15,885 bases of DNA from a virus (IMGVR_UViG_2534681991_000026); one strand, 5' to 3'; shown: positions 4,310 through 14,114, numbered from the stretch's first letter. Translations and numbers: made by a program. Notes: generated from the letters alone by a model not told the origin.

Positions 4310-5517
4310 TCCGGTTTTTCTCCCTCGCTGATTTTTACTTCCTGTTTCCATGCCTGGCTGAACTCATCACCACCATCACGCGGTGACAGTCCTTCACGTT
4401 CGCGGGCTTCGTTCGGACACATAACGCCGGATTTGATGCCGCGCTCATAGGTGGCAAAGCGTTCGCCAGGTGTGGCCCGTAACAGGTCCGCGCTGTCAAA
4501 CTCCACCTGATACCGGATACCAGGTACAGGCGAGGCCACCAGCAGGGCGTTTTTTATCTGCTGCTCAAAGTTCGCCAGCCACGGGCGCATCGTCATGGTG
4601 AGAAATGCGCGGCTTGCCTCGCTGAAATTGCTGTAGGTGCTGTTGCTGTATTCCTGCAAAAAAATCGGCGAGACGTTGAACATTCGGGCGATGTCTTCAA
4701 TGGTGAAGCGACGGGAGGCCAGCCATTCAGCATCCTGATTACTCATGCCCAGCTGCTGATAGCTCATACCCCCTTCAAGGATGGGCGTTTTTCCGGCGTT
4801 TCTGGCCCCTTTGTAGCGTTCCAGTGCGGCTAATGCCTGTTTGCCCTTCACGCCGTCCAGCCATTCGCCTGACGTGATAACCCCTGCCGCCATCATGCCA
4901 TCACGCATCACGCTCGCGCCGTGGCGTTGTTGGGCCAGCCCAAGCCCCAGCGATTCGCGGCAAATGGTTACAGGTGAGCGCCCCATAAAACCGTCATCCG
5001 TGGAGTAACGAAGGTGGAGAACCTCCCACGGTAAATAGTTGCGGGTGTTTCCGGTGTAAGCGTCAGTGATGCAGTAGCGCCAGTTGTGTTCTCCTGTCTG
5101 CTCCACGTTCACCGACTGCGGCGGGTAAGGATGTAAAGCCGCCGGAAAACCATCACGCCCCCACTGAATCACCGCGTAAGCATTACCGTTTAACAGGCAG
5201 TGGCGGATCATCATTCGCTTAAACTGGTAGGGAGTCTGCCACGCGTTCGGGCGCTCGTTGAGGATGTGATCGACCGGATGAGAATCAAGCCACTCGCGGG
5301 CCTCCTTCCCCTTCTCATTGCGTACCAGGTACAGGTAGCATGGCATAGTAGCCACCGCCTCAGAGATGACCGTGACGGCGTTCATGACGGCGGGGAGTGA
5401 TTCCGCTGTCCCCGATGATACGTACTCACCCGCCCCCGTGTTCGATGTGCCAGCCAGCGCCATAAATTCATCAAGCGTCATGCTGCGCTGCTCTTTTTTT
5501 CTTCTGAAAGGCCACAT
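4306..5517 (-). CDS. Portal protein, HK97 family
   Basis: 403 aa; size and position (after protease, before connector genes); GGGGGTG SD-like sequence 5 nt upstream of the ATG at 5517, which sits 1 nt after the protease stop. Confidence 0.8.
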   Translation of the reverse strand: MWPFRRKKEQRSMTLDEFMALAGTSNTGAGEYVSSGTAESLPAVMNAVTVISEAVATMPCYLYLVRNEKGKEAREWLDSHPVDHILNERPNAWQTPYQFKRMMIRHCLLNGNAYAVIQWGRDGFPAALHPYPPQSVNVEQTGEHNWRYCITDAYTGNTRNYLPWEVLHLRYSTDDGFMGRSPVTICRESLGLGLAQQRHGASVMRDGMMAAGVITSGEWLDGVKGKQALAALERYKGARNAGKTPILEGGMSYQQLGMSNQDAEWLASRRFTIEDIARMFNVSPIFLQEYSNSTYSNFSEASRAFLTMTMRPWLANFEQQIKNALLVASPVPGIRYQVEFDSADLLRATPGERFATYERGIKSGVMCPNEAREREGLSPRDGGDEFSQAWKQEVKISEGEKPE

Positions 5518-7930: not shown

Positions 7931-8203
7931 TTAGCTGTCCTGGTAATTGCGCCGTATTTCATCACCAGCACCATCTATACCCATTTCGGCACAAGTGCGA
8001 TTAACTGCATTTCTCAGGTCTCCGAAATTATCAGGCGGCTCCGGTGGCCTCTGTGCCTTCCTGGAACATTCCAGCCGTCGCATCGTGATGTGATGCCGTT
8101 CCTTGTCTGTCTCCACCAGCATCATGACTTCACCCCATCGCGCCGCCGCCCTCCGGTAAAATCCTTTCGCTTCGAGTTCTTCCGCTATGCGGTCATGTAC
8201 CAT
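7931..8203 (-). CDS. PerC-family-like putative transcriptional activator (90 aa)
   Basis: Start at ATG 8203 (MVHDRIAEELEAKGFYRRAAARWGEVMM...) with GAGGGGG SD; the AE-LE--G--RRAA-RW pattern resembles PerC-like activators as I recall them. Sits just upstream of the head operon. Motif-level call only. Confidence 0.45.
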   Translation of the reverse strand: MVHDRIAEELEAKGFYRRAAARWGEVMMLVETDKERHHITMRRLECSRKAQRPPEPPDNFGDLRNAVNRTCAEMGIDGAGDEIRRNYQDS

Positions 8204-9289: not shown

Positions 9290-9530
9290 TGCACCTCCTC
9301 TACCTCTCTACCTAATCATCTTTCAGGTCAGTAATGGCGCGGCTTTCAGATGGGTAGAGGGCTTTCGTGGCCCTCTACCCATCATCTACCCGCCCCTCAC
9401 AAACAACCTTAATCATGGTGGAGGGGGTAGAGGGCTTTTATTTGCCTTCTACCAGCCCCTCTACCCACTTATCATATTGAATAATGTATATTTATTTTCT
9501 TTAGGTAGAAGAGGTAGAGGGCTTTTGTCT
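9290..9530. repeat. Iteron array flanking an AT-rich stretch; putative replication origin
   Basis: At least 8 copies of the core GGTAGAG(GGC)/(GCC)CTCTACC in both orientations (about 9298, 9306, 9354, 9373, 9386, 9426, 9459, 9505, 9514), including a perfect 11-bp inverted pair GGGTAGAGGGC(9352-9362)/GCCCTCTACCC(9370-9380); AT-rich 9467-9503. Directly 3' of the primase gene. Confidence 0.6.
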
Positions 9531-9534
9531 AAAA

Positions 9535-11289
9535 TTATAAAAACGCGTCGCAATCCTCTGTTGTTGTCACATTGGTTTGCGTAAGTCCTTTAACCCTGCG
9601 CGTTATATATTCACATCCGTAAACTTTTGCCGCTGGCTTCATGGCCTTGCTGAAATCAGCCACGTTTAGCGGCTTGCTTCTTCCTGCGTATGCCATAAAC
9701 GCCAGATAGACGCGGTAAAGGCTGTTTCTGGTCGTGTACTTCACGGAATCGCCACCGCCACCCATCATCAGGCCGCGCGCTTCCTCCAGAAAATTCAGGA
9801 ACTGGCAAAACTCAATAACCGGATCCGTCTGTTGCTTTATTGCCAGTGCTTCATCACCGTCGCGCTGTTCCAGGAGTAAAGCCCGTGCCTTTTCAGGGTC
9901 GGCAAAGTTCGCCAGTAATCGGCGGATAATCACAGGGATTTCAGCCGCGACCTTCTCCGGCAAATCCTTGTCCTTTTCTGCCTCGCTAACGATATTGTCA
10001 AAGCGAAAAATAACCCGACGACGTGCCACGCCTCCGGCCCGTTCGGTGAATATCATCGGGTTGTTGTTGGTCGTCAGCACCACCGCCCTGATTACCGCCG
10101 TGAAACGCTTTTCATATTTCGGGTTAATTTCCACGGGGTCGCCGCCCGTGATTTTCTTGATGCCCGTTCCTTCGCCTGTATATTTCGGCTGGTCTGCCAG
10201 GACGATAAGACGACTCCCGACAACCTGCGCACGTCCACCAGCATCATCAAGCGATGTCATTTCAGCGCTTACCGTGTTCTGTTTCCCTGCCAGAAGGCTG
10301 GCTATGTGCGTGAATGTACTTTTACCGCTTCCGCCGTCTCCGGTGGCCTCAATAAACATCTGCCAGTCGTACCGGTTCGCCATAATCATGTACAGCGCGG
10401 CACATATACGCATCATCTTGCGCGGGTCTTTTCCGGCTGCGTGCTCAAGGCATTTATGAAAATTTGGCGCGTTATCGCGGATGTTCTCCCCTGGTGCTGG
10501 TGGCGTGTACTCAATACCGTTGTGCGTGGTGATCCAGTTCTCCGGCGTGTGCGGGGAAAATTCCCCCGTTTTCAGGTCAAGCGCACCATTGGCGAACGGC
10601 AACAAATCGCCGGACGGCTCGCCCATTGGTTCGGCAATAACTTTTAACGCTTCAACGGCGTTATTGATTACGCGCTTGCTGAAAGTGGCCCTGTGCTCTG
10701 AATAGATCGCCACCATTTCGCGGCTAAGTTCCATTGTGCTGACCGGACACCATAACCCGCCGCGCCATACGTGAACGATTTCACTTTCAGGATGTACGCA
10801 AACGCCATCAAAGCGATCGGAAAGCAGCTGAGCGCGTTCACTGTCCGCCATCTGCGAAAGTTGCGCCTTTTGCTTTACCGGAAGCTCAACGAACAGACCT
10901 TCAGAAAGATTCTGGCGCTCACGGGCCAGATATTCGCGCCAGTTCTCCACCTCCTGAACGTGCATTCCCTCAGGGTAAAAATTTGCATCCTGTACACCTG
11001 CCGCCGCCAGCTTCTGACCAATCGCCTTTATCATTACAGGTTCAAGATGTCCGGCCCTGAATATGCGTACTGATTTTCGGCCTTCCGGCACAATTTGCAG
11101 CTTATCCAGTTCGGATAACTGCTGATCCCCAAGCCACACAGGAGGCTCATTATCTCCGGCCATACGCGCGTCATGTTCCTGCCATTGTTTAGCGTGTGAC
11201 CAGGCATCACTACCCGCAAAAATAATGACTTCTGTTTCTTTGTGTTTTATGCCGCGTGACTGCTGTTTTACGTTCGGTGCAAGTTTCAT
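9535..11289 (-). CDS. Replication protein: P4-alpha-like primase/helicase
   Basis: 584 aa; N-terminal primase-like region and C-terminal NTPase with Walker A GDGGSGKST; typical of satellite and PICI replication modules; start overlaps the upstream gene (ATGA). Confidence 0.8.
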   Translation of the reverse strand: MKLAPNVKQQSRGIKHKETEVIIFAGSDAWSHAKQWQEHDARMAGDNEPPVWLGDQQLSELDKLQIVPEGRKSVRIFRAGHLEPVMIKAIGQKLAAAGVQDANFYPEGMHVQEVENWREYLARERQNLSEGLFVELPVKQKAQLSQMADSERAQLLSDRFDGVCVHPESEIVHVWRGGLWCPVSTMELSREMVAIYSEHRATFSKRVINNAVEALKVIAEPMGEPSGDLLPFANGALDLKTGEFSPHTPENWITTHNGIEYTPPAPGENIRDNAPNFHKCLEHAAGKDPRKMMRICAALYMIMANRYDWQMFIEATGDGGSGKSTFTHIASLLAGKQNTVSAEMTSLDDAGGRAQVVGSRLIVLADQPKYTGEGTGIKKITGGDPVEINPKYEKRFTAVIRAVVLTTNNNPMIFTERAGGVARRRVIFRFDNIVSEAEKDKDLPEKVAAEIPVIIRRLLANFADPEKARALLLEQRDGDEALAIKQQTDPVIEFCQFLNFLEEARGLMMGGGGDSVKYTTRNSLYRVYLAFMAYAGRSKPLNVADFSKAMKPAAKVYGCEYITRRVKGLTQTNVTTTEDCDAFL

Positions 11290-11585
11290 TTTTTACCCCT
11301 GAATACGTTCAACATCTTTCTTATTTCCTGAATATTGGCGCGTGCTTTCTCCCTGCTGGTGGGCACGTTACGCGGTACAGCCTGCACCAGAGAAAAATCA
11401 CGGTCGAACTGATAAACAGGCATAACGCAATCATATTCGTAGCCTTCACGGCGGTAAGTTACGCGCCGTTCCTCCACGCCCTTAATCATTACCGTGCCGC
11501 CGTACTTATCGCGGTAAATATCCCCGCACATGAATTTAGTGCGAGTTTTTCCGCTGGCAGTTAAGCCAGGATATTTAAGTTTCAT
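11286..11585 (-). CDS. Hypothetical protein (99 aa)
   Basis: ORF immediately upstream of and overlapping the primase start; same strand. Confidence 0.5.
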   Translation of the reverse strand: MKLKYPGLTASGKTRTKFMCGDIYRDKYGGTVMIKGVEERRVTYRREGYEYDCVMPVYQFDRDFSLVQAVPRNVPTSREKARANIQEIRKMLNVFRGKK

Positions 11586-11590
11586 TATTT

Positions 11591-11824
11591 TTATTCTCCG
11601 GTGTGCTGTTCTTTATATCTGTCGTGCAATAGGTCTATTTCTTGCAGTTCCATTATTACAGGCTCAAGAAGCGTTATTAATGCCGTAACAATTCTTGATT
11701 TTTGTTTGTCGCATTCATTGTCGCCAAGTGTTTCATGCCATATGCGCAATATTTCCAACATATTTTCACTGTGAGAAAGTGCAAGAAATGCGCGGTATAT
11801 TGTTTCGTGGTAAATATCACGCAT
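11591..11824 (-). CDS. Hypothetical protein (77 aa)
   Basis: ORF in tight operon (5-nt gap to next gene); AT-rich relative to the structural genes. Confidence 0.45.
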   Translation of the reverse strand: MRDIYHETIYRAFLALSHSENMLEILRIWHETLGDNECDKQKSRIVTALITLLEPVIMELQEIDLLHDRYKEQHTGE

Positions 11825-11825
11825 A

Positions 11826-12047
11826 TTAATCCCCGTCCGTCGTTTTTCTTAAAATAACCTCTGTCACGAAATCAGCATAATCGGCGGCGATATTCAGTAC
11901 GTCTATTCCAGTTGATTTATATTCTTTCGTGCCAATTAAGAAAAAAGATGCTCTAATCAGTTTGGATATTGACGAAAGCGCATCACCCGCATCATCAGAT
12001 ACGCCGGAAAATTCATGTTTCAGGGAATTAAAACGATCATCACGCAT
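11826..12047 (-). CDS. Hypothetical protein (73 aa)
   Basis: Start chosen at ATG 12047 (MRDDRFNSLKHEF...), which gives an 8-nt overlap with the upstream gene's stop; the longer ORF-track form (start 12095) would overlap by 56 nt. Confidence 0.4.
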   Translation of the reverse strand: MRDDRFNSLKHEFSGVSDDAGDALSSISKLIRASFFLIGTKEYKSTGIDVLNIAADYADFVTEVILRKTTDGD

Positions 12048-12264
12048 AACCCCCCCCATTTTCACAATCAGCAATAAGAATATTTTTAGCGTCATTCATC
12101 GACCGCGTGGCGGTGTATCGGATACATTCCAGGGCGAACAATGTGTATTCTTCCCGTTCTTCCTTTTGTGCAAGCACTGCTGTGCATTCAATATCAATAA
12201 GTGCGTGCATCAGCGTAGTGAGCGCGGCGGCTGCTGCGTCCGGTGTGGTTTTATTCTGCAACAT
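12040..12264 (-). CDS. Hypothetical protein (74 aa)
   Basis: ATG 12264 preceded by GGAG about 7 nt upstream; Ala-rich N-terminus. Confidence 0.45.
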   Translation of the reverse strand: MLQNKTTPDAAAAALTTLMHALIDIECTAVLAQKEEREEYTLFALECIRYTATRSMNDAKNILIADCENGGGYA

Positions 12265-12469
12265 ATCTTAACTCCACTGAACTTACGTATTTACACGGGT
12301 TTCCTTTTACCTGTCGCACACGGTAGGAATCGTTTTTAATCACTTCCGCTATTTGCCCAAACTTTTTTACCGCTGTACGGCGGCTCTTGTAGCGGTAAGT
12401 GTTTATCTCCCTTCTGCTCATTACCGCTTCATTGTGATATCTGGTTATCACTATCAGCACTTCAAACAT
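12251..12469 (-). CDS. Hypothetical protein (about 72 aa)
   Basis: Start taken at ATG 12469 (MFEVLIVITRYHNEAVMSRREIN...), overlapping the upstream icd-like stop as ATGTTTGA; alternative starts at 12499 or 12421. Confidence 0.4.
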   Translation of the reverse strand: MFEVLIVITRYHNEAVMSRREINTYRYKSRRTAVKKFGQIAEVIKNDSYRVRQVKGNPCKYVSSVELRYVAE

Positions 12470-12632
12470 GACGCACCCCCTGACGAATACGGGCGACAAA
12501 AATCAGATGTGCGCGCGGCAACTGGGCGCGGGCTTCGCGTTCAGTGGCTGCGGTAACGGTGTAAATATCAATGCTGCTGTGGTGGCACTGCATAAAGCGC
12601 CAGACAAAGTAAGGGCGTGCGGATACAGCCAT
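12462..12632 (-). CDS. Icd-like small protein, paralog 2 (56 aa)
   Basis: MAVSARPYFVWRFMQ...TEREARAQLPRAHLIFVARIRQG; GGGAG SD about 8 nt upstream of ATG 12632; paralogous to 12919-13116. Resembles the small Icd-like proteins annotated in P4-like prophages (from memory). An in-frame upstream extension to 12926 exists with no stop. Confidence 0.45.
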   Translation of the reverse strand: MAVSARPYFVWRFMQCHHSSIDIYTVTAATEREARAQLPRAHLIFVARIRQGVRHV

Positions 12633-12918
12633 GTGAAAGGCTCCCAATTTAATGTTAAGGGGTCTCACCACTACGCTGCTAAACGGGGTGGCGAGACGTA
12701 ACAGGGTTAGCAGACTGGCAAATTGGGAAACCAGCGAGCGCAAAGGCTCCCCCGTTACGCCCCGCCATAATGCGGGTATGGGTAGGTTTACGGACACAAA
12801 AAAACCGCTTATCGGATATGGGCGGCTGTCCGCCAATTTATTCAGGCTGCTAAACCCGGTCGCCATGTGGGCGACGGGGGAAGCATACAGCCCCGTGATA
12901 ATTTTTTGCAAGCGGTTT

Positions 12919-13116
12919 TTACGCATGATGTGACCCCTGACGAATACGAGCGGCAAATACAGCAACACAACCTGACGGGCAACGGCTACGCGCTTCGCGT
13001 TCCGTCCAGGCGGTTACGTGGATGATTTGAGATTCTCCGGCACTCAGGGCCAGAAAACGCCACACAAAGGCCGTTTGTGTGTGTACAAGGTGTGGTATAT
13101 GATTTACGGCAACCAT
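12919..13116 (-). CDS. Icd-like small protein, paralog 1 (65 aa)
   Basis: MVAVNHIPHLVHTQTAFVWRFLALSAGESQIIHVTAWTEREARSRCPSGCVAVFAARIRQG; AGGAG SD 5-6 nt upstream of ATG 13116; first gene of the leftward early operon. Confidence 0.5.
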   Translation of the reverse strand: MVAVNHIPHLVHTQTAFVWRFLALSAGESQIIHVTAWTEREARSRCPSGCVAVFAARIRQGSHHA

Positions 13117-13206
13117 AACGGCTCCTAGTTTACGTTGTTGGTTAGAAGCCCCGTTACTGCTCCTACAGTGCGGGGCTTTGCTCTTTGTATTTCAACAATC
13201 CTTTTG

Positions 13207-13239
13207 GTGTGTTTCATGTTATGGACACATGAAACACAC
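13207..13239. promoter_or_regulatory. Operator-like perfect inverted repeat in the divergent control region
   Basis: GTGTGTTTCATG(13207-13218)-N9-CATGAAACACAC(13228-13239); a third half-site GAAACACAC at 13276-13284 abuts a -10-like TATACT (13270-13275) upstream of the plus-strand gene at 13306. Confidence 0.55.
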
Positions 13240-13305
13240 GTCAAGGCTTTTTGTATTTCTTTTTTTGTGTATACTGAAACACACCGATGATTAGGAGTTT
13301 CAGAA

Positions 13306-13611
13306 ATGGCAACGGCTAACAAAAACGCAAAATCACAACTGACAACCGTCAGAGTCCCACTAGATGTTATGCAAGGGATGGAATCCGTTAAGCTGGACGG
13401 CGAAAGCAATGCCGGATTTATCGTAACCGCCATGCGCGGTGAAATCGCCCGCCGCCAGGCAGAAGGAAGCGGAGAAAATCCCCTTGTGTCTTCACTGGAT
13501 GCTTTGGCTAAGGTCGAACAAATTGGCATCAAGGCAGCGGAGGATATCGGGCAGCTTGTCACCGTTGCACGCGAAGAACTCCAGCGTCGCAAGACCCAAG
13601 AATCAGAATAA
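13306..13611 (+). CDS. Putative small DNA-binding regulator (101 aa), possibly ribbon-helix-helix
   Basis: ATG 13306 with AGGAG SD 9 nt upstream and a -10-like element; only clearly supported plus-strand gene inside the element; TTVRVPLDVMQGMESV suggests a beta-strand then helix as in RHH regulators (weak). Divergent from the leftward operon. Confidence 0.5.
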   Translation: MATANKNAKSQLTTVRVPLDVMQGMESVKLDGESNAGFIVTAMRGEIARRQAEGSGENPLVSSLDALAKVEQIGIKAAEDIGQLVTVAREELQRRKTQESE

Positions 13612-13940
13612 TCACTATCAGCGCCGTGGCGTGAGGTACTACGGCGCATTGCTTTACAGGCGCACACAATGACCAACGAAGAATCAACCGAAAAAACATC
13701 ACCTGCACGAAAAAGACGACGCAGAAAGAAAGAGCATGAATCAGAACGATTCGCGCCGTGTTCTTTTGCCCTTGAGAAGTACCTTAAAGAATACTCATCA
13801 AAGGAGAGAGCTTCGCAGTTATGGCAACGCACTGAACCAGACTGATTGCATTGCACACCAGCCTGATAGCGGCTATCATCCCCGTGCTTATGTTTGGGAT
13901 CACACACACAAACTGCGCAGCGGGTTATCTGTTCAGAAAG

Positions 13941-13968
13941 GCGGCTCCATTTCGGGGCCGCTTTTTTT
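13941..13968 (+). terminator. Strong rho-independent terminator of the rightward transcript
   Basis: GCGGCTCC(13941-13948)/GGGGCCGC(13954-13961) stem (one G-U pair), 5-nt loop, followed by T7 (13962-13968). Confidence 0.7.
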
Positions 13969-14114
13969 ATGCCTGAAAAACTCCAATTTTGTTGTTTTTC
14001 AGTTTCACCAGGGCGAACGAATCCCTGCCCACATTCGGGCGTATATTCAATCTTCATGGTTATAGCTCTGTGTTCAGATGATTGATGTGTGGCGGCTGCG
14101 TGCCGCCAGCGTGA

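What the first reader, a model, noticed from the sequence alone, without database searches (positions are those of the whole stretch)
11286..12499. Cluster of five small overlapping genes of unknown function between the icd-like genes and the primase
Five ORFs of about 72-99 aa are packed with 4- to 14-nt overlaps in a visibly AT-richer segment than the structural genes. None shows a motif I can recognise. This position (after the regulators, before replication genes) is where satellites usually carry helper-derepression, helper-interference or anti-defence functions, so this is the likeliest place in the window for undescribed biology.
Basis: inference. Interest (0 to 1): 0.6.

Follow-up and report, generated by a model that had tools for sequence, protein, structure and literature searches.

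The report
Small early genes of a phage satellite
The five small genes are real and sit in the early operon of an E. coli phage satellite, but one is the already described regulator RgdR, two are halves of one gene that a variable run of G's splits or fuses, and the rest remain of unknown function.

Summary
The five minus-strand ORFs exist as described (A 72, B 74, C 73, D 77, E 99 aa). They are AT-richer than the structural genes (43.7% vs 53.3% GC) and evolve under purifying selection (dN/dS 0.12-0.5).

The window is a capsid-forming PICI inserted in tqsA. The ORFs lie between a P4-type isrK-like/C4 (CI) antisense-RNA leader with icd-like genes and the primase.

- **E** is RgdR (DUF4222), a published small regulator said to be "encoded by all analysed E. 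coli PICIs". Here it is the CGD allele. It always overlaps the replicase start by 4 nt, whichever replicase type follows. Its predicted core is an SH3/Tudor-like barrel.
- **B and C** are two halves of one acidic helical protein. Their junction is a G8 tract. Relatives carry G7-G11, which gives fused or split forms, and both halves stay under selection in every state.
- **D** belongs to a very narrow family.
- **A** is rare and not annotated by PGAP, but it is conserved and coding.

Nothing matches P4 epsilon or Cnr, defence systems or solved structures by sequence. Functions of A-D remain inferred. Verdict: a real, ordinary, widespread PICI early module. It is a new member of a known kind, with one modestly new detail, the homopolymer-toggled gene.

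The parts
12251..12469 (-). ORF A: 72 aa, basic (pI 10.0), rare accessory gene whose start overlaps the stop of icd2 by 8 nt
   Evidence: It matches phrog_9805 (1.5e-22). Only 4 protein clusters were found among 5.8e9 proteins. It takes the same position, right after an Ash/Icd-like ORF, in other PICIs (L013, L014). dN/dS is 0.33-0.34. PGAP does not annotate it. Homologues of 36-52% identity occur in lambdoid phages, two genes upstream of replication gene O.
12040..12264 (-). ORF B: 74 aa, acidic (pI 4.6), helical hairpin; the N-terminal half of the bipartite B-C protein
   Evidence: It matches phrog_5146 and positions 2-76 of the 154-aa phrog_2512. In relatives it is fused to C as proteins of 144-154 aa. 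dN/dS is 0.18-0.26 in every tract state. AF2 predicts helices 8-35 and 38-68 at pLDDT about 68.
12050..12057 (-). Poly-G tract (G8 here) at the B/C junction. It encodes the Gly-Gly linker, lies 2 nt before the ATG of C (Shine-Dalgarno-like), and its length decides whether B and C are fused or split.
   Evidence: Tract lengths seen: G8 in the window, L001, L003 and L004; G7 in L002 and L005 (fused); G9 in L006. In 82 IMG/VR contigs the counts are G7 23, G8 34, G9 18, G10 4, G11 2. Lengths 7, 8 and 9 occur on each B-variable type and on both common C-tail types. Among 12 near-identical RefSeq islands, 7 are identical to the window (annotated split in L001) and 5 match over one base fewer and carry one hypothetical gene fewer (fused G7 in L002). 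That indel is the only difference in 1214 nt.
11826..12047 (-). ORF C: 73 aa, acidic (pI 4.75), helical; the C-terminal half of the bipartite B-C protein, with its own invariant ATG
   Evidence: It matches phrog_24341 (5.5e-35) and positions 78-145 of phrog_2512. Met73 is invariant in 41 fused homologues. dN/dS is 0.42-0.50 in fused, split and G9 states.
11591..11824 (-). ORF D: 77 aa, acidic (net charge -7), predicted helical (sequence pattern only, no model made); narrow family found in most related islands
   Evidence: It matches phrog_2196 (1.4e-38). Only 11 representatives reach E<=1e-3 among 1.84e9 proteins. A 77-aa copy is present in most of about 90 related loci, and divergent D-like genes sit in islands that lack B-C. 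dN/dS is 0.14-0.50. One relative has an internal stop (L003).
11286..11585 (-). ORF E: RgdR-family protein (DUF4222), 99 aa, pI 9.96, CGD allele; its end overlaps the primase start by 4 nt (ATGA)
9535..11289 (-). Primase-helicase (D5_N, DUF5906, Pox_D5), the last long gene of the operon
   Evidence: Pfam matches and PGAP's 'DNA primase family protein'.
12462..12632 (-). icd2: second Icd-like ORF (56 aa), directly upstream of A and overlapping its start
   Evidence: NCBIfam NF033153 scores 55.2 bits. PGAP reads a longer 'frameshifted' Icd-like pseudogene across this stretch.
12684..12772 (-). C4/CI-type antisense RNA (P1 immI / P4 immunity type) in the operon leader between icd1 and icd2
   Evidence: Rfam RF01695 scores 74 bits (gathering score 45), E 3.6e-13, with the full model 1-87 matched. 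The CI region of P4 hits the same model at 74.9 bits.
12798..12888 (-). isrK-like leader with a1/b1-type C4 target and a hairpin followed by a U-run
   Evidence: RF03163 scores 45.5 bits (gathering score 46.7) and RF01394 scores 37.6 bits (gathering score 50). Both are just below threshold. P4 hits RF01394 at 60.8 bits in the same relative position.
12919..13116 (-). icd1: first Icd-like ORF (65 aa), first gene of the operon
   Evidence: NCBIfam NF033153 scores 64.7 bits. A promoter-like site at 13244-13216 and a 27-nt inverted repeat at 13193-13253 lie upstream.

Best explanation
**Setting.** The segment is the promoter-distal, pre-replication part of the early operon of an E. coli capsid-forming phage-inducible chromosomal island (cf-PICI) inserted in tqsA. 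Transcription runs on the minus strand: icd1, then an isrK-like leader and a C4/CI antisense RNA, then icd2, A, B, C, D, E and the primase. No convincing internal promoter or terminator interrupts it.

The ORFs are not one machine. They are a mosaic array of small early proteins.

**E (shown).** E is RgdR, a basic 99-aa protein. Its orthologues bind DNA without sequence specificity, raise LEE1 transcription and lower motility. This copy is the CGD allele.

**E (inferred).** Its core is an SH3/Tudor-like barrel followed by a basic helix. It is always made in step with the replicase through an ATGA overlap. Its native role is therefore most likely that of a small DNA- or RNA-polymerase-associated accessory factor of satellite replication or early transcription. 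The effects on host virulence genes would then be side effects.

**B and C (shown).** They are the two helical-hairpin halves of one acidic protein. A poly-G tract forms the Gly linker and sits where a Shine-Dalgarno sequence for C would be. Slippage to G7 or G10 fuses the halves. G8, G9 or G11 separate them. Both halves stay under purifying selection in all states.

**B and C (inferred).** C is translated from its own ATG in every state, so the halves work together whether tethered or not.

**B-C, D and A (inferred).** B-C and D are acidic helical protein-binding modulators acting on host or helper proteins early after induction. A is a rare basic add-on translationally coupled to icd2.

**Regulation (inferred from P1 immI and P4).** The C4-type RNA keeps the whole distal operon, these genes included, silent until the island is induced.
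For: **Island identity**
- PGAP annotation of the identical island lists int, alpA, primase, SSB, PerC, capsid, protease, portal, connectors, HNH and terminase subunits. There are no tail genes, and split tqsA flanks the island.
- AlpA and the primase domains are confirmed by Pfam.

**Operon**
- All genes are co-oriented with overlaps or spacers of 1-5 nt.
- Promoter-like hits do not exceed the shuffle expectation. Terminator-like hits in the wider scanned region do (17 found, 6.6 expected), but none of them is a convincing minus-strand terminator inside the cluster.

**C4 RNA**
- C4 scores 74 bits with the full model matched, and the isrK-like and a1b1 matches lie just upstream.
- P4 hits the same two models in the same order.

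**E**
- It is DUF4222, with 90/99 identity to the RgdR-type copy.
- The RgdR phenotypes and non-specific EMSA binding are reported in PMC3378721.
- The 4-nt overlap with D5-type primase, RepA/AAA_25 helicase, DUF927 and a further primase-like replicase is kept, even at 32% identity.
- The AF2 core has pLDDT about 90.

**B and C**
- phrog_2512 spans both halves.
- Fused proteins of 144-154 aa are common.
- dN/dS stays below 0.5 in every state.
- The AF2 model shows two hairpins joined by a low-confidence linker, residues 71-75, next to the tract-encoded Gly-Gly.

**Charges** are.

**Mosaic architecture** across about 90 loci is shown.
Against: - No experiment or homology assigns a function to A, B-C or D. 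Their 'protein-binding modulator' role rests only on size, charge, helicity and cassette-like allelic variation.
- The sequence of E does not co-vary with replicase type. That argues against a specific E-replicase contact.
- The published ED1a CGD allele neither bound DNA nor activated type III secretion (PMC3378721).
- C4 is absent from many related islands that carry the same small genes, so C4 control is not a general feature of the module.
- Some relatives carry a stop in D or a frameshift in C, so individual genes are dispensable in the prophage state.
Confidence: 0.6

Rival explanations
1. Helper-directed functions in the P4 sense. One or more of A-D would derepress, inhibit or redirect the helper phage, as epsilon does for P4 or Ppi/Pti proteins do for SaPIs. 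Their allelic cassettes would track different helpers.
For: - The position equals that of P4 epsilon/orf151/cnr, downstream of a CI/C4 RNA and upstream of an alpha-like primase.
- B and C show discrete allelic cassettes: 3 B-variable types, 5 C-middle types and 4 C-tail types, recombined in many combinations.
- The proteins are small, acidic and helical.
- B-C, D and E have no counterpart in 50,697 phage records, so they are satellite-specific.
Against: - There is no match to the Derepression family, DUF5375 or orf151.
- In Gram-negative PICIs the signal is reported to run from helper to island through alpA (PMC6092414).
- Interference by cf-PICIs is attributed to their own capsid and packaging module (bioRxiv 10.1101/2022.09.08.507074).
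- No phenotype data exist for these genes.
Confidence: 0.2
2. D and E, and perhaps B-C, are replication accessory proteins of the island. They could act as an origin-remodelling or copy-number factor, functionally like P4 Cnr. That would explain why E is locked to the replicase start.
For: - The E-replicase 4-nt overlap is kept across four or more unrelated replicase types and down to 32% E identity.
- A D-like gene is nearly always the next gene upstream.
- RgdR binds DNA non-specifically (PMC3378721).
- The best structural matches of E are the C-terminal Tudor domains of the UvrD/PcrA helicases.
- Iterons lie just downstream of the primase, at 9336-9528.
- Distant A homologues in lambdoid phages also lie just before the replication genes.
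Against: - E alleles do not co-vary with replicase type.
- RgdR acts in trans on host promoters without the replicase (PMC3378721).
- Alpha-type primase-helicases need no loader (established knowledge of P4 alpha).
- There is no homology to Cnr.
Confidence: 0.25
3. The genes are anti-defence or defence cargo. They would be early-expressed inhibitors of host restriction or abortive-infection systems, or small defence genes against competing phages.
For: - The segment is AT-rich and mosaic, with variable gene content (A, A', s70, X121 inserts).
- B, C and D are small and acidic.
- Early operon position suits anti-restriction.
Against: - None of the six proteins tested, including fused B-C, hits a PADLOC model.
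- The cf-PICI literature places the expected immune hot spots before and after the packaging operon, not here (bioRxiv 10.1101/2025.02.11.637232).
- D and E are near-constant core genes rather than cargo.
- There is no similarity to solved anti-restriction proteins by sequence.
Confidence: 0.1
4. The cluster is decaying filler. The small ORFs would be remnants under relaxed selection, and the poly-G variation would be simply frameshift decay or assembly error.
For: - PGAP flags a frameshift (G9) in L006, a frameshift in C in L007 and a stop in D in L003.
- PGAP does not call A.
- Homopolymers are error-prone in some sequencing chemistries.
Against: - dN/dS is 0.12-0.5 for every ORF, and for B and C in every tract state.
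- Most of about 90 loci are intact.
- Groups with identical flanks mostly share one tract length (5/5, 3/3, 3/3, 2/2).
- The four Nissle-type assemblies listed all carry the same gene count as the split locus L004.
- C keeps an invariant ATG.
Confidence: 0.07

Closest known systems
RgdR (ECs1581) of EHEC O157:H7 O-island 51 / CP-933C, Pfam DUF4222
   Same: ORF E has the same length (99 aa) and the same pI (about 10). It shares 90/99 residues with the O157:H7 island copy that carries the ECs1581 diagnostic residues. It has the same position on an int-alpA-...-replicase island, and the Pfam match is well above threshold (PMC3378721; PMC6092414).
   Different: It carries C20 (CGD) instead of the name-giving RGD, plus A10, K27, R45 and D61, as in the commensal ED1a allele, which did not activate type III secretion or bind DNA. 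Unlike ED1a it keeps K35. Activity of this allele cannot be predicted.
Left (early) operon of satellite phage P4: CI RNA, epsilon, orf151, cnr, alpha
   Same: The order of parts is the same: isrK-like leader, C4/CI RNA embedded in an Ash/Icd-like ORF, a run of small ORFs, then a primase-helicase. The same Rfam models hit both.
   Different: None of A-E is homologous to epsilon, orf151 or Cnr. The island is a cf-PICI with alpA and its own capsid genes, not a P4-like element. Many sister islands lack the C4 RNA.
P1/P7 immI operon (c4 - icd - ant)
   Same: There is a C4 antisense RNA with repeated target motifs, followed by an icd-like ORF whose stop overlaps the start of the next gene, as icd and ant do in P1 (the P1 arrangement is from established knowledge).
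   Different: The gene coupled to icd here is a 72-aa protein with no antirepressor domain. The operon continues into replication genes.
Capsid-forming PICIs (EcCIEDL933 prototype) and classical E. coli PICIs (EcCICFT073, EcCIED1a)
   Same: The modules match: int, alpA, small genes, pri/rep, SSB, PerC and a complete capsid/packaging module without tails, in about 15.9 kb. The element in strain ED1a with the closest RgdR allele is reported at the same attachment region (ydgD-ydgG) (PMC3378721; bioRxiv 10.1101/2022.09.08.507074).
   Different: The published work on these islands does not describe A-D, the poly-G junction or the C4 leader.
Homopolymer contingency loci (slipped-strand phase variation, for example poly-G tracts in restriction-modification mod genes)
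   Same: A G7-G11 coding tract changes length recurrently on all allelic backgrounds and far faster than point substitutions accumulate.
   Different: No frame gives an OFF state. The downstream half has its own start codon and stays under selection in all frames. The switch is fused versus split, not ON versus OFF. Switching within a clone was not observed.
Bacterial Tudor-like RNA-polymerase-interacting domains (UvrD/PcrA C-terminal domain, CarD RID) and DUF1653
   Different: Sequence identity is only 10-17%. The fold is generic (SH3, KOW and chromo domains score alike). No binding to RNA polymerase is known for RgdR.

Membership tests
RgdR / DUF4222 | Pfam PF13973 match above the gathering score | tested here: met
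   82.8 bits against a cut-off of 27, covering residues 18-68 and profile positions 3-53 of 53.
RgdR / DUF4222 | About 99 aa, strongly basic (reported 11.7 kDa, pI 10.09) | tested here: met
   99 aa, 11.64 kDa, pI 9.96 (PMC3378721).
RgdR / DUF4222 | RGD tripeptide at residues 20-22 (name-giving; tied to activation of type III secretion) | tested here: not met
   The window protein has C20-G21-D22, as in the ED1a allele ECED1_1787 (PMC3378721). Family membership stands. The 'RGD' activity class does not.
RgdR / DUF4222 | Encoded on an OI-51-like island / E. coli PICI | tested here: met
   It lies on an int-alpA-pri island in tqsA. The same gene order is seen in all compared islands.
RgdR / DUF4222 | Activates LEE1 and represses motility; binds DNA | not testable with these tools
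   This needs reporter, motility and EMSA assays with this allele.
P4 epsilon (Derepression family PF25738) | Sequence or profile similarity to epsilon | tested here: not met
   A-E give no Pfam hit at E<=1, whereas P4 epsilon itself scores 170 bits. hhalign probabilities are 3% or less.
P4 Cnr (DUF5375) | Sequence or profile similarity to Cnr; gene directly upstream of the primase | tested here: not met
   The position is met by E, but there is no similarity: hhalign probability is 0.1% for E and at most 0.3% for the other ORFs, and Pfam DUF5375 is absent.
Known anti-phage defence systems (PADLOC-DB 2.0) | Match to any of 5027 models | tested here: not met
   Zero families at E<=1 for A, B, C, D, E and fused B-C.
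C4/CI antisense-RNA immunity operon (P1 immI, P4) | C4 RNA above the Rfam gathering score in the operon leader | tested here: met
   RF01695 scores 74 bits against 45, with the full-length model matched, at 12684-12772 on the minus strand.
C4/CI antisense-RNA immunity operon (P1 immI, P4) | Upstream and downstream target repeats complementary to the C4 loop | tested here: inconclusive
   The a1b1 model scores 45.5 bits, just under its cut-off of 46.7. A repeated GCTGCTAAAC motif lies at 12675-12692 and 12846-12863. The duplex-energy test was not discriminating against shuffles and controls.
C4/CI antisense-RNA immunity operon (P1 immI, P4) | icd-like ORF translationally coupled to the next gene | tested here: met
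   icd2 is NF033153 at 55 bits. Its stop overlaps the ATG of A within ATGTTTGA.
Capsid-forming PICI | int + alpA + pri/rep plus own capsid, protease, portal, connectors and terminase; no tail or lysis genes; about 15 kb | tested here: met
   PGAP features of the identical island L001 and Pfam AlpA and primase domains. The island spans about 15.9 kb between tqsA fragments.
Capsid-forming PICI | Helper-dependent induction and tail-only piracy | not testable with these tools
   This needs induction and transfer experiments.
Phase-variable contingency locus | Homopolymer in coding sequence with recurrent length change among close relatives | tested here: met
   G7-G11 are seen in 81 contigs. Pairs that differ at only 1-2 of 400 flanking nt already differ in tract length in 16 of 18 cases. 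Lengths 7-9 occur on each B type and on both common C-tail types.
Phase-variable contingency locus | Reversible ON/OFF switching of expression within a clonal population | not testable with these tools
   Groups with identical flanks mostly share one length. There are no read-level data. No OFF state is predicted, because C keeps its own ATG.

The most novel reading that the evidence does not exclude
The homopolymer junctions would be genuine slipped-strand switches of a phage satellite. These are the G tract between B and C, and an A7/A8 tract between A' and B in sister islands. They would toggle a modular, fast-diversifying acidic effector between tethered and untethered forms, and so change which helper or host proteins it engages. 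In the same reading, RgdR would be a CarD/UvrD-CTD-like Tudor protein through which PICIs dock onto RNA polymerase or onto their own replicase. That would explain both its universal coupling to the replicase gene and its pleiotropic effects on LEE and motility.
Probability: 0.1. Interest if true: 0.7.

Novelty: new member of a known kind. Interest (0 to 1): 0.35.

Why it matters
At least part of this cassette was found in 1,135 of 5,426 complete E. coli genomes, including EHEC O157, O103, O111 and O121 and the probiotic Nissle 1917. Yet only one of its genes has ever been studied.

- **RgdR.** It is the constant gene locked to the replicase of every island type, and it probably has an SH3/Tudor-like fold. 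This gives a concrete, testable idea of what RgdR does for the satellite, rather than only what it does to LEE.
- **Annotation.** Recognising B and C as one gene that a poly-G tract splits or fuses corrects the annotation of many genomes, where the locus is called 'frameshifted' or appears as two unrelated hypotheticals. It also shows that both halves are kept by selection.
- **Island classes.** The P4-type C4/CI RNA in front of the cluster links two satellite classes that were described as sharing only int, alpA/vis and the primase.

None of this overturns current views. It narrows where to look.

Tried and rejected
- **Paralogy of the small helical ORFs.** I suspected A', B, C and D were paralogous repeats. 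hhalign gave probabilities of 2.5% or less for all pairs, so I rejected the idea.
- **Homology to P4 genes.** I compared A-E with P4 epsilon, orf151 and Cnr. The best result was E against orf151, at probability 8.7% and E 0.004. orf151 is not DUF4222 in Pfam. Rejected.
- **Isolated phages.** tblastn of E, B-C and D against 50,697 phage records found nothing. Only A has distant phage homologues.
- **Solved structures by sequence.** Nothing meaningful was found for A, D, E or the A'-B-C fusion.
- **Curated protein families.** NCBIfam has no model for A-E.
- **Defence models.** PADLOC gave nothing.
- **Fold search with the B-C model.** Only generic helical bundles came up (FlgN/FliJ, GST C-terminal domains, syntaxin). 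Given pLDDT 62, I disregarded them.
- **Fold search of E against viral models.** Only uncharacterised and DUF1653 proteins were found. The afdb50 library was unavailable.
- **Species-representative genomes.** Scanning with the E profile returned only 2 loci (Shigella flexneri and Escherichia albertii), because the derived peptide patterns were narrow.
- **C4-target pairing.** The duplex-energy test did not separate targets from controls or shuffles.
- **Literature.** The cf-PICI and PICI papers contain no functional statement on A-D.

Full report
**1. What is in the sequence**

All long ORFs of the window lie on the minus strand. Between an Icd-like pair and a primase-helicase there are five small ORFs:

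| ORF | Coordinates | Length |
|---|---|---|
| A | 12251-12469 | 72 aa |
| B | 12040-12264 | 74 aa |
| C | 11826-12047 | 73 aa |
| D | 11591-11824 | 77 aa |
| E | 11286-11585 | 99 aa |

- The Icd-like genes match NCBIfam NF033153 at 64.7 and 55.2 bits.
- The primase-helicase carries the D5_N, DUF5906 and Pox_D5 domains.
- Four of the six junctions overlap: icd2/A by 8 nt, A/B by 14 nt, B/C by 8 nt and E/pri by 4 nt. C/D and D/E are separated by 1 and 5 nt.
- Each start has a G-rich ribosome-binding motif.
- GC content is 43.7% here, against 53.3% in the structural genes.

**2. Are they genes?**

- Each ORF matches a PHROG family of unknown function, with E-values from 1.5e-11 to 1.4e-38.
- Pairwise dN/dS against relatives is 0.12-0.49 for E, 0.14-0.50 for D, 0.34-0.43 for C and 0.33-0.34 for A.
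- Over several hundred pairs it is 0.18-0.26 for B and 0.42-0.50 for C.

D has a stop in strain CD45, and C has a frameshift in strain 06-00048. Most of about 90 related loci are intact.

**3. What the element is**

- The 1214-nt segment is 100% identical in seven complete E. coli genomes, among them O103:H2 and O121 strains. At least part of it is found in 1,135 of 5,426 genomes.
- In strain 2011C-4315 the island sits inside tqsA. It carries int, alpA, the small genes, primase, SSB, a PerC-family regulator and a full head/packaging module, but no tail genes. That is the make-up of a capsid-forming PICI (bioRxiv 10.1101/2022.09.08.507074).
- Iterons (GGTAGAGGGCTTT) lie downstream of the primase, at 9336-9528.

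**4. The regulatory setting**

- Rfam finds a full-length C4 antisense RNA at 12684-12772 on the minus strand (74 bits, gathering score 45).
- Upstream of it are near-threshold a1b1-target and isrK-like matches.
- Phage P4 hits the same two models in the same order, at its CI RNA.
- No convincing promoter or terminator lies inside the cluster.

The five genes are therefore the distal part of an icd1 - leader/C4 - icd2 - A-E - pri operon. Their place corresponds to epsilon-orf151-cnr upstream of alpha in P4. This is a positional likeness only. Pfam and hhalign show no relationship of A-E to those P4 proteins. C4 is present in only some sister islands.

**5. ORF E is RgdR**

- E is a DUF4222 protein (82.8 bits). 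RgdR (ECs1581, 99 aa, pI 10.09) of O-island 51 is a DUF4222 protein (PMC10877973) and, to my knowledge, the only member of the family that has been studied.
- RgdR raises LEE1 transcription, lowers motility and binds DNA without specificity (PMC3378721).
- The O157:H7 island copy (L011) carries the diagnostic residues D10, R20, Q27, K35, H45 and R61. The window protein shares 90/99 residues with it. It has A10, C20, K27, R45 and D61 like the inactive commensal ED1a allele, but it keeps K35.
- The ED1a element is reported between ydgD and ydgG. From my own knowledge ydgG is tqsA, so this is the same site.
[quoted passage not shown] This gene is therefore known.

What I can add about E:

- Its last codons overlap the replicase start by 4 nt in every island examined. 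This holds whether the replicase is a D5-type primase, a RepA/AAA_25 helicase, DUF927 or another primase-like protein, and even for an E homologue of 32% identity.
- Its AlphaFold core (residues 20-70, pLDDT about 90) is a five-stranded barrel followed by a basic helix.
- Viral matches are uncharacterised DUF1653-like proteins.

**6. B and C are one gene with a variable joint**

- phrog_2512 (154 aa) covers B and C end to end.
- The B stop and the C start lie in GAAAAT-G8-TTATGCGTGA (tract at 12050-12057).
- Five of the 12 near-identical islands match over 1213 rather than 1214 nt. The one examined, L002, has G7 and a single 144-aa gene. That indel is the only difference in 1214 nt.
- Fused proteins of 144-154 aa make up most of the 120 best-scoring homologues listed, out of 490 clusters found.
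- In 82 IMG/VR contigs the tract is G7 in 23, G8 in 34, G9 in 18, G10 in 4 and G11 in 2.
- Groups with identical flanks mostly share one length, so this is not assembly noise.
- Pairs that differ at only 1-2 of 400 flanking positions already differ in tract length as often as random pairs do.
- Lengths 7, 8 and 9 occur on each B-variable type and on both common C-tail types. The tract has therefore slipped many times.
- B and C remain under purifying selection in the fused, split and G9 states, and the Met that starts C is invariant in fused proteins.
- The model (pLDDT 62) shows two helical hairpins with a low-confidence linker at residues 71-75, next to the tract-encoded glycines.

My reading is that C is translated from its own ATG, with the G run acting as ribosome-binding site. 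The two halves would then work together whether joined or not.

A second junction of this kind exists in sister islands. An A8/A7 tract lies between a 76-aa gene (A') and B, and it gives A'-B-C fusions of 217-224 aa.

**7. A and D**

- **D:** acidic, net charge -7. Only 11 relatives are found in 1.84 billion representative proteins. It has no phage counterpart.
- **A:** basic, pI 10.0. Only four protein clusters were found, and PGAP does not annotate it. In other PICIs it keeps its place and its 8-nt overlap behind an Ash/Icd-like ORF. It has homologues of 36-52% identity in lambdoid phages. In the one annotated record it lies two genes upstream of replication gene O.
- **The region as a whole:** the stretch between icd and D is a mosaic. 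A, A', a 70-aa ORF or a 121-aa ORF can be present or absent.

**8. What they probably do**

- **Shown:** gene identity, operon position, selection, and the fuse/split polymorphism. RgdR orthologues have published regulatory and DNA-binding activity.
- **Inferred:** E serves the island as a DNA- or polymerase-associated accessory of early transcription or replication. B-C and D are small acidic helical binders of host or helper proteins, and their cassette-like alleles hint at changing partners. C4 keeps the set silent before induction.

Rivals are helper-directed action in the P4 or SaPI sense, replication accessories, anti-defence cargo, or decaying filler. They are weighed in the rival section. 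None is excluded except the last, which the selection data make unlikely.

**9. Verdict**

This is a real and very widespread, but essentially ordinary, PICI early module. One member is already known. The homopolymer-toggled B-C gene, the RgdR fold and coupling, and the P4-type RNA leader are modest additions. Interest 0.35. It is a new member of a known kind.

Noticed in passing
window 12684-12772 (-), with 12798-12888 (-): A full-length C4/CI antisense RNA (Rfam RF01695, 74 bits) is preceded by near-threshold a1b1-target and isrK-like matches. It lies inside the stretch that PGAP annotates as a 'frameshifted Icd-like' pseudogene. P4 hits the same models. PICIs and P4 were described as sharing only int, alpA/vis and the primase.
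   Followed up: partly
window 9336-9528: Three direct copies of GGTAGAGGGCTTT, plus a 27-nt inverted repeat, lie just downstream of the primase. This is probably the island's replication origin.
   Followed up: no
L004 about 4470-4490 and sister loci (A'/B junction): A second homopolymer junction exists. GA8TGCGGAGGGGTACATG separates a 76-aa gene (A') from B. The A7 form (2 of 14 loci) fuses them, giving A'-B-C proteins of 217-224 aa (for example P0083, seen on 52 contigs).
   Followed up: partly
window 13306-13611 (+) and 13736-14065 (+): Two plus-strand genes lie between alpA and icd1: a YlcI/YnfO-family protein and a hypothetical protein in PGAP. The 310-aa minus-strand ORF at 13125-14057 that overlaps them is therefore probably spurious. 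The divergent intergenic region 13117-13305 holds a 27-nt inverted repeat (13193-13253) and a promoter-like site.
   Followed up: no
window about 7931-8203 (L001 8646-8918): The island carries a PerC-family regulator as well as RgdR. Members of both families are reported to act on LEE, and the host strains are LEE-positive O103/O121 STEC.
   Followed up: no
L013 5678-5765 and 6367-6454: A related island has two C4 RNA copies flanking its ORF A homologue. A is thus associated with the icd/C4 module rather than with B-C-D.
   Followed up: no
L008 4255-4620; L009 4486-4698: Extra small genes are inserted in the array in O157:H7 islands: a 121-aa ORF between B and C, and a related 70-aa ORF upstream of B-C. 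They share an N-terminal motif (LSxxDLNxIQFxEKFTGQLLVNV).
   Followed up: no
L102 (plasmid pZ1323HEC0475-3, 10.8 kb circular): A complete PICI-like element (int, alpA, icd-like, DUF4222, primase, protease-capsid fusion) is deposited as a circular 'plasmid'. It may be an excised island.
   Followed up: no
L014 3024-3296 (P0123): A 90-aa protein joins ORF A to the C-terminal tail of a B allele and ends at the poly-G tract. This shows recombination between the small-gene cassettes.
   Followed up: no
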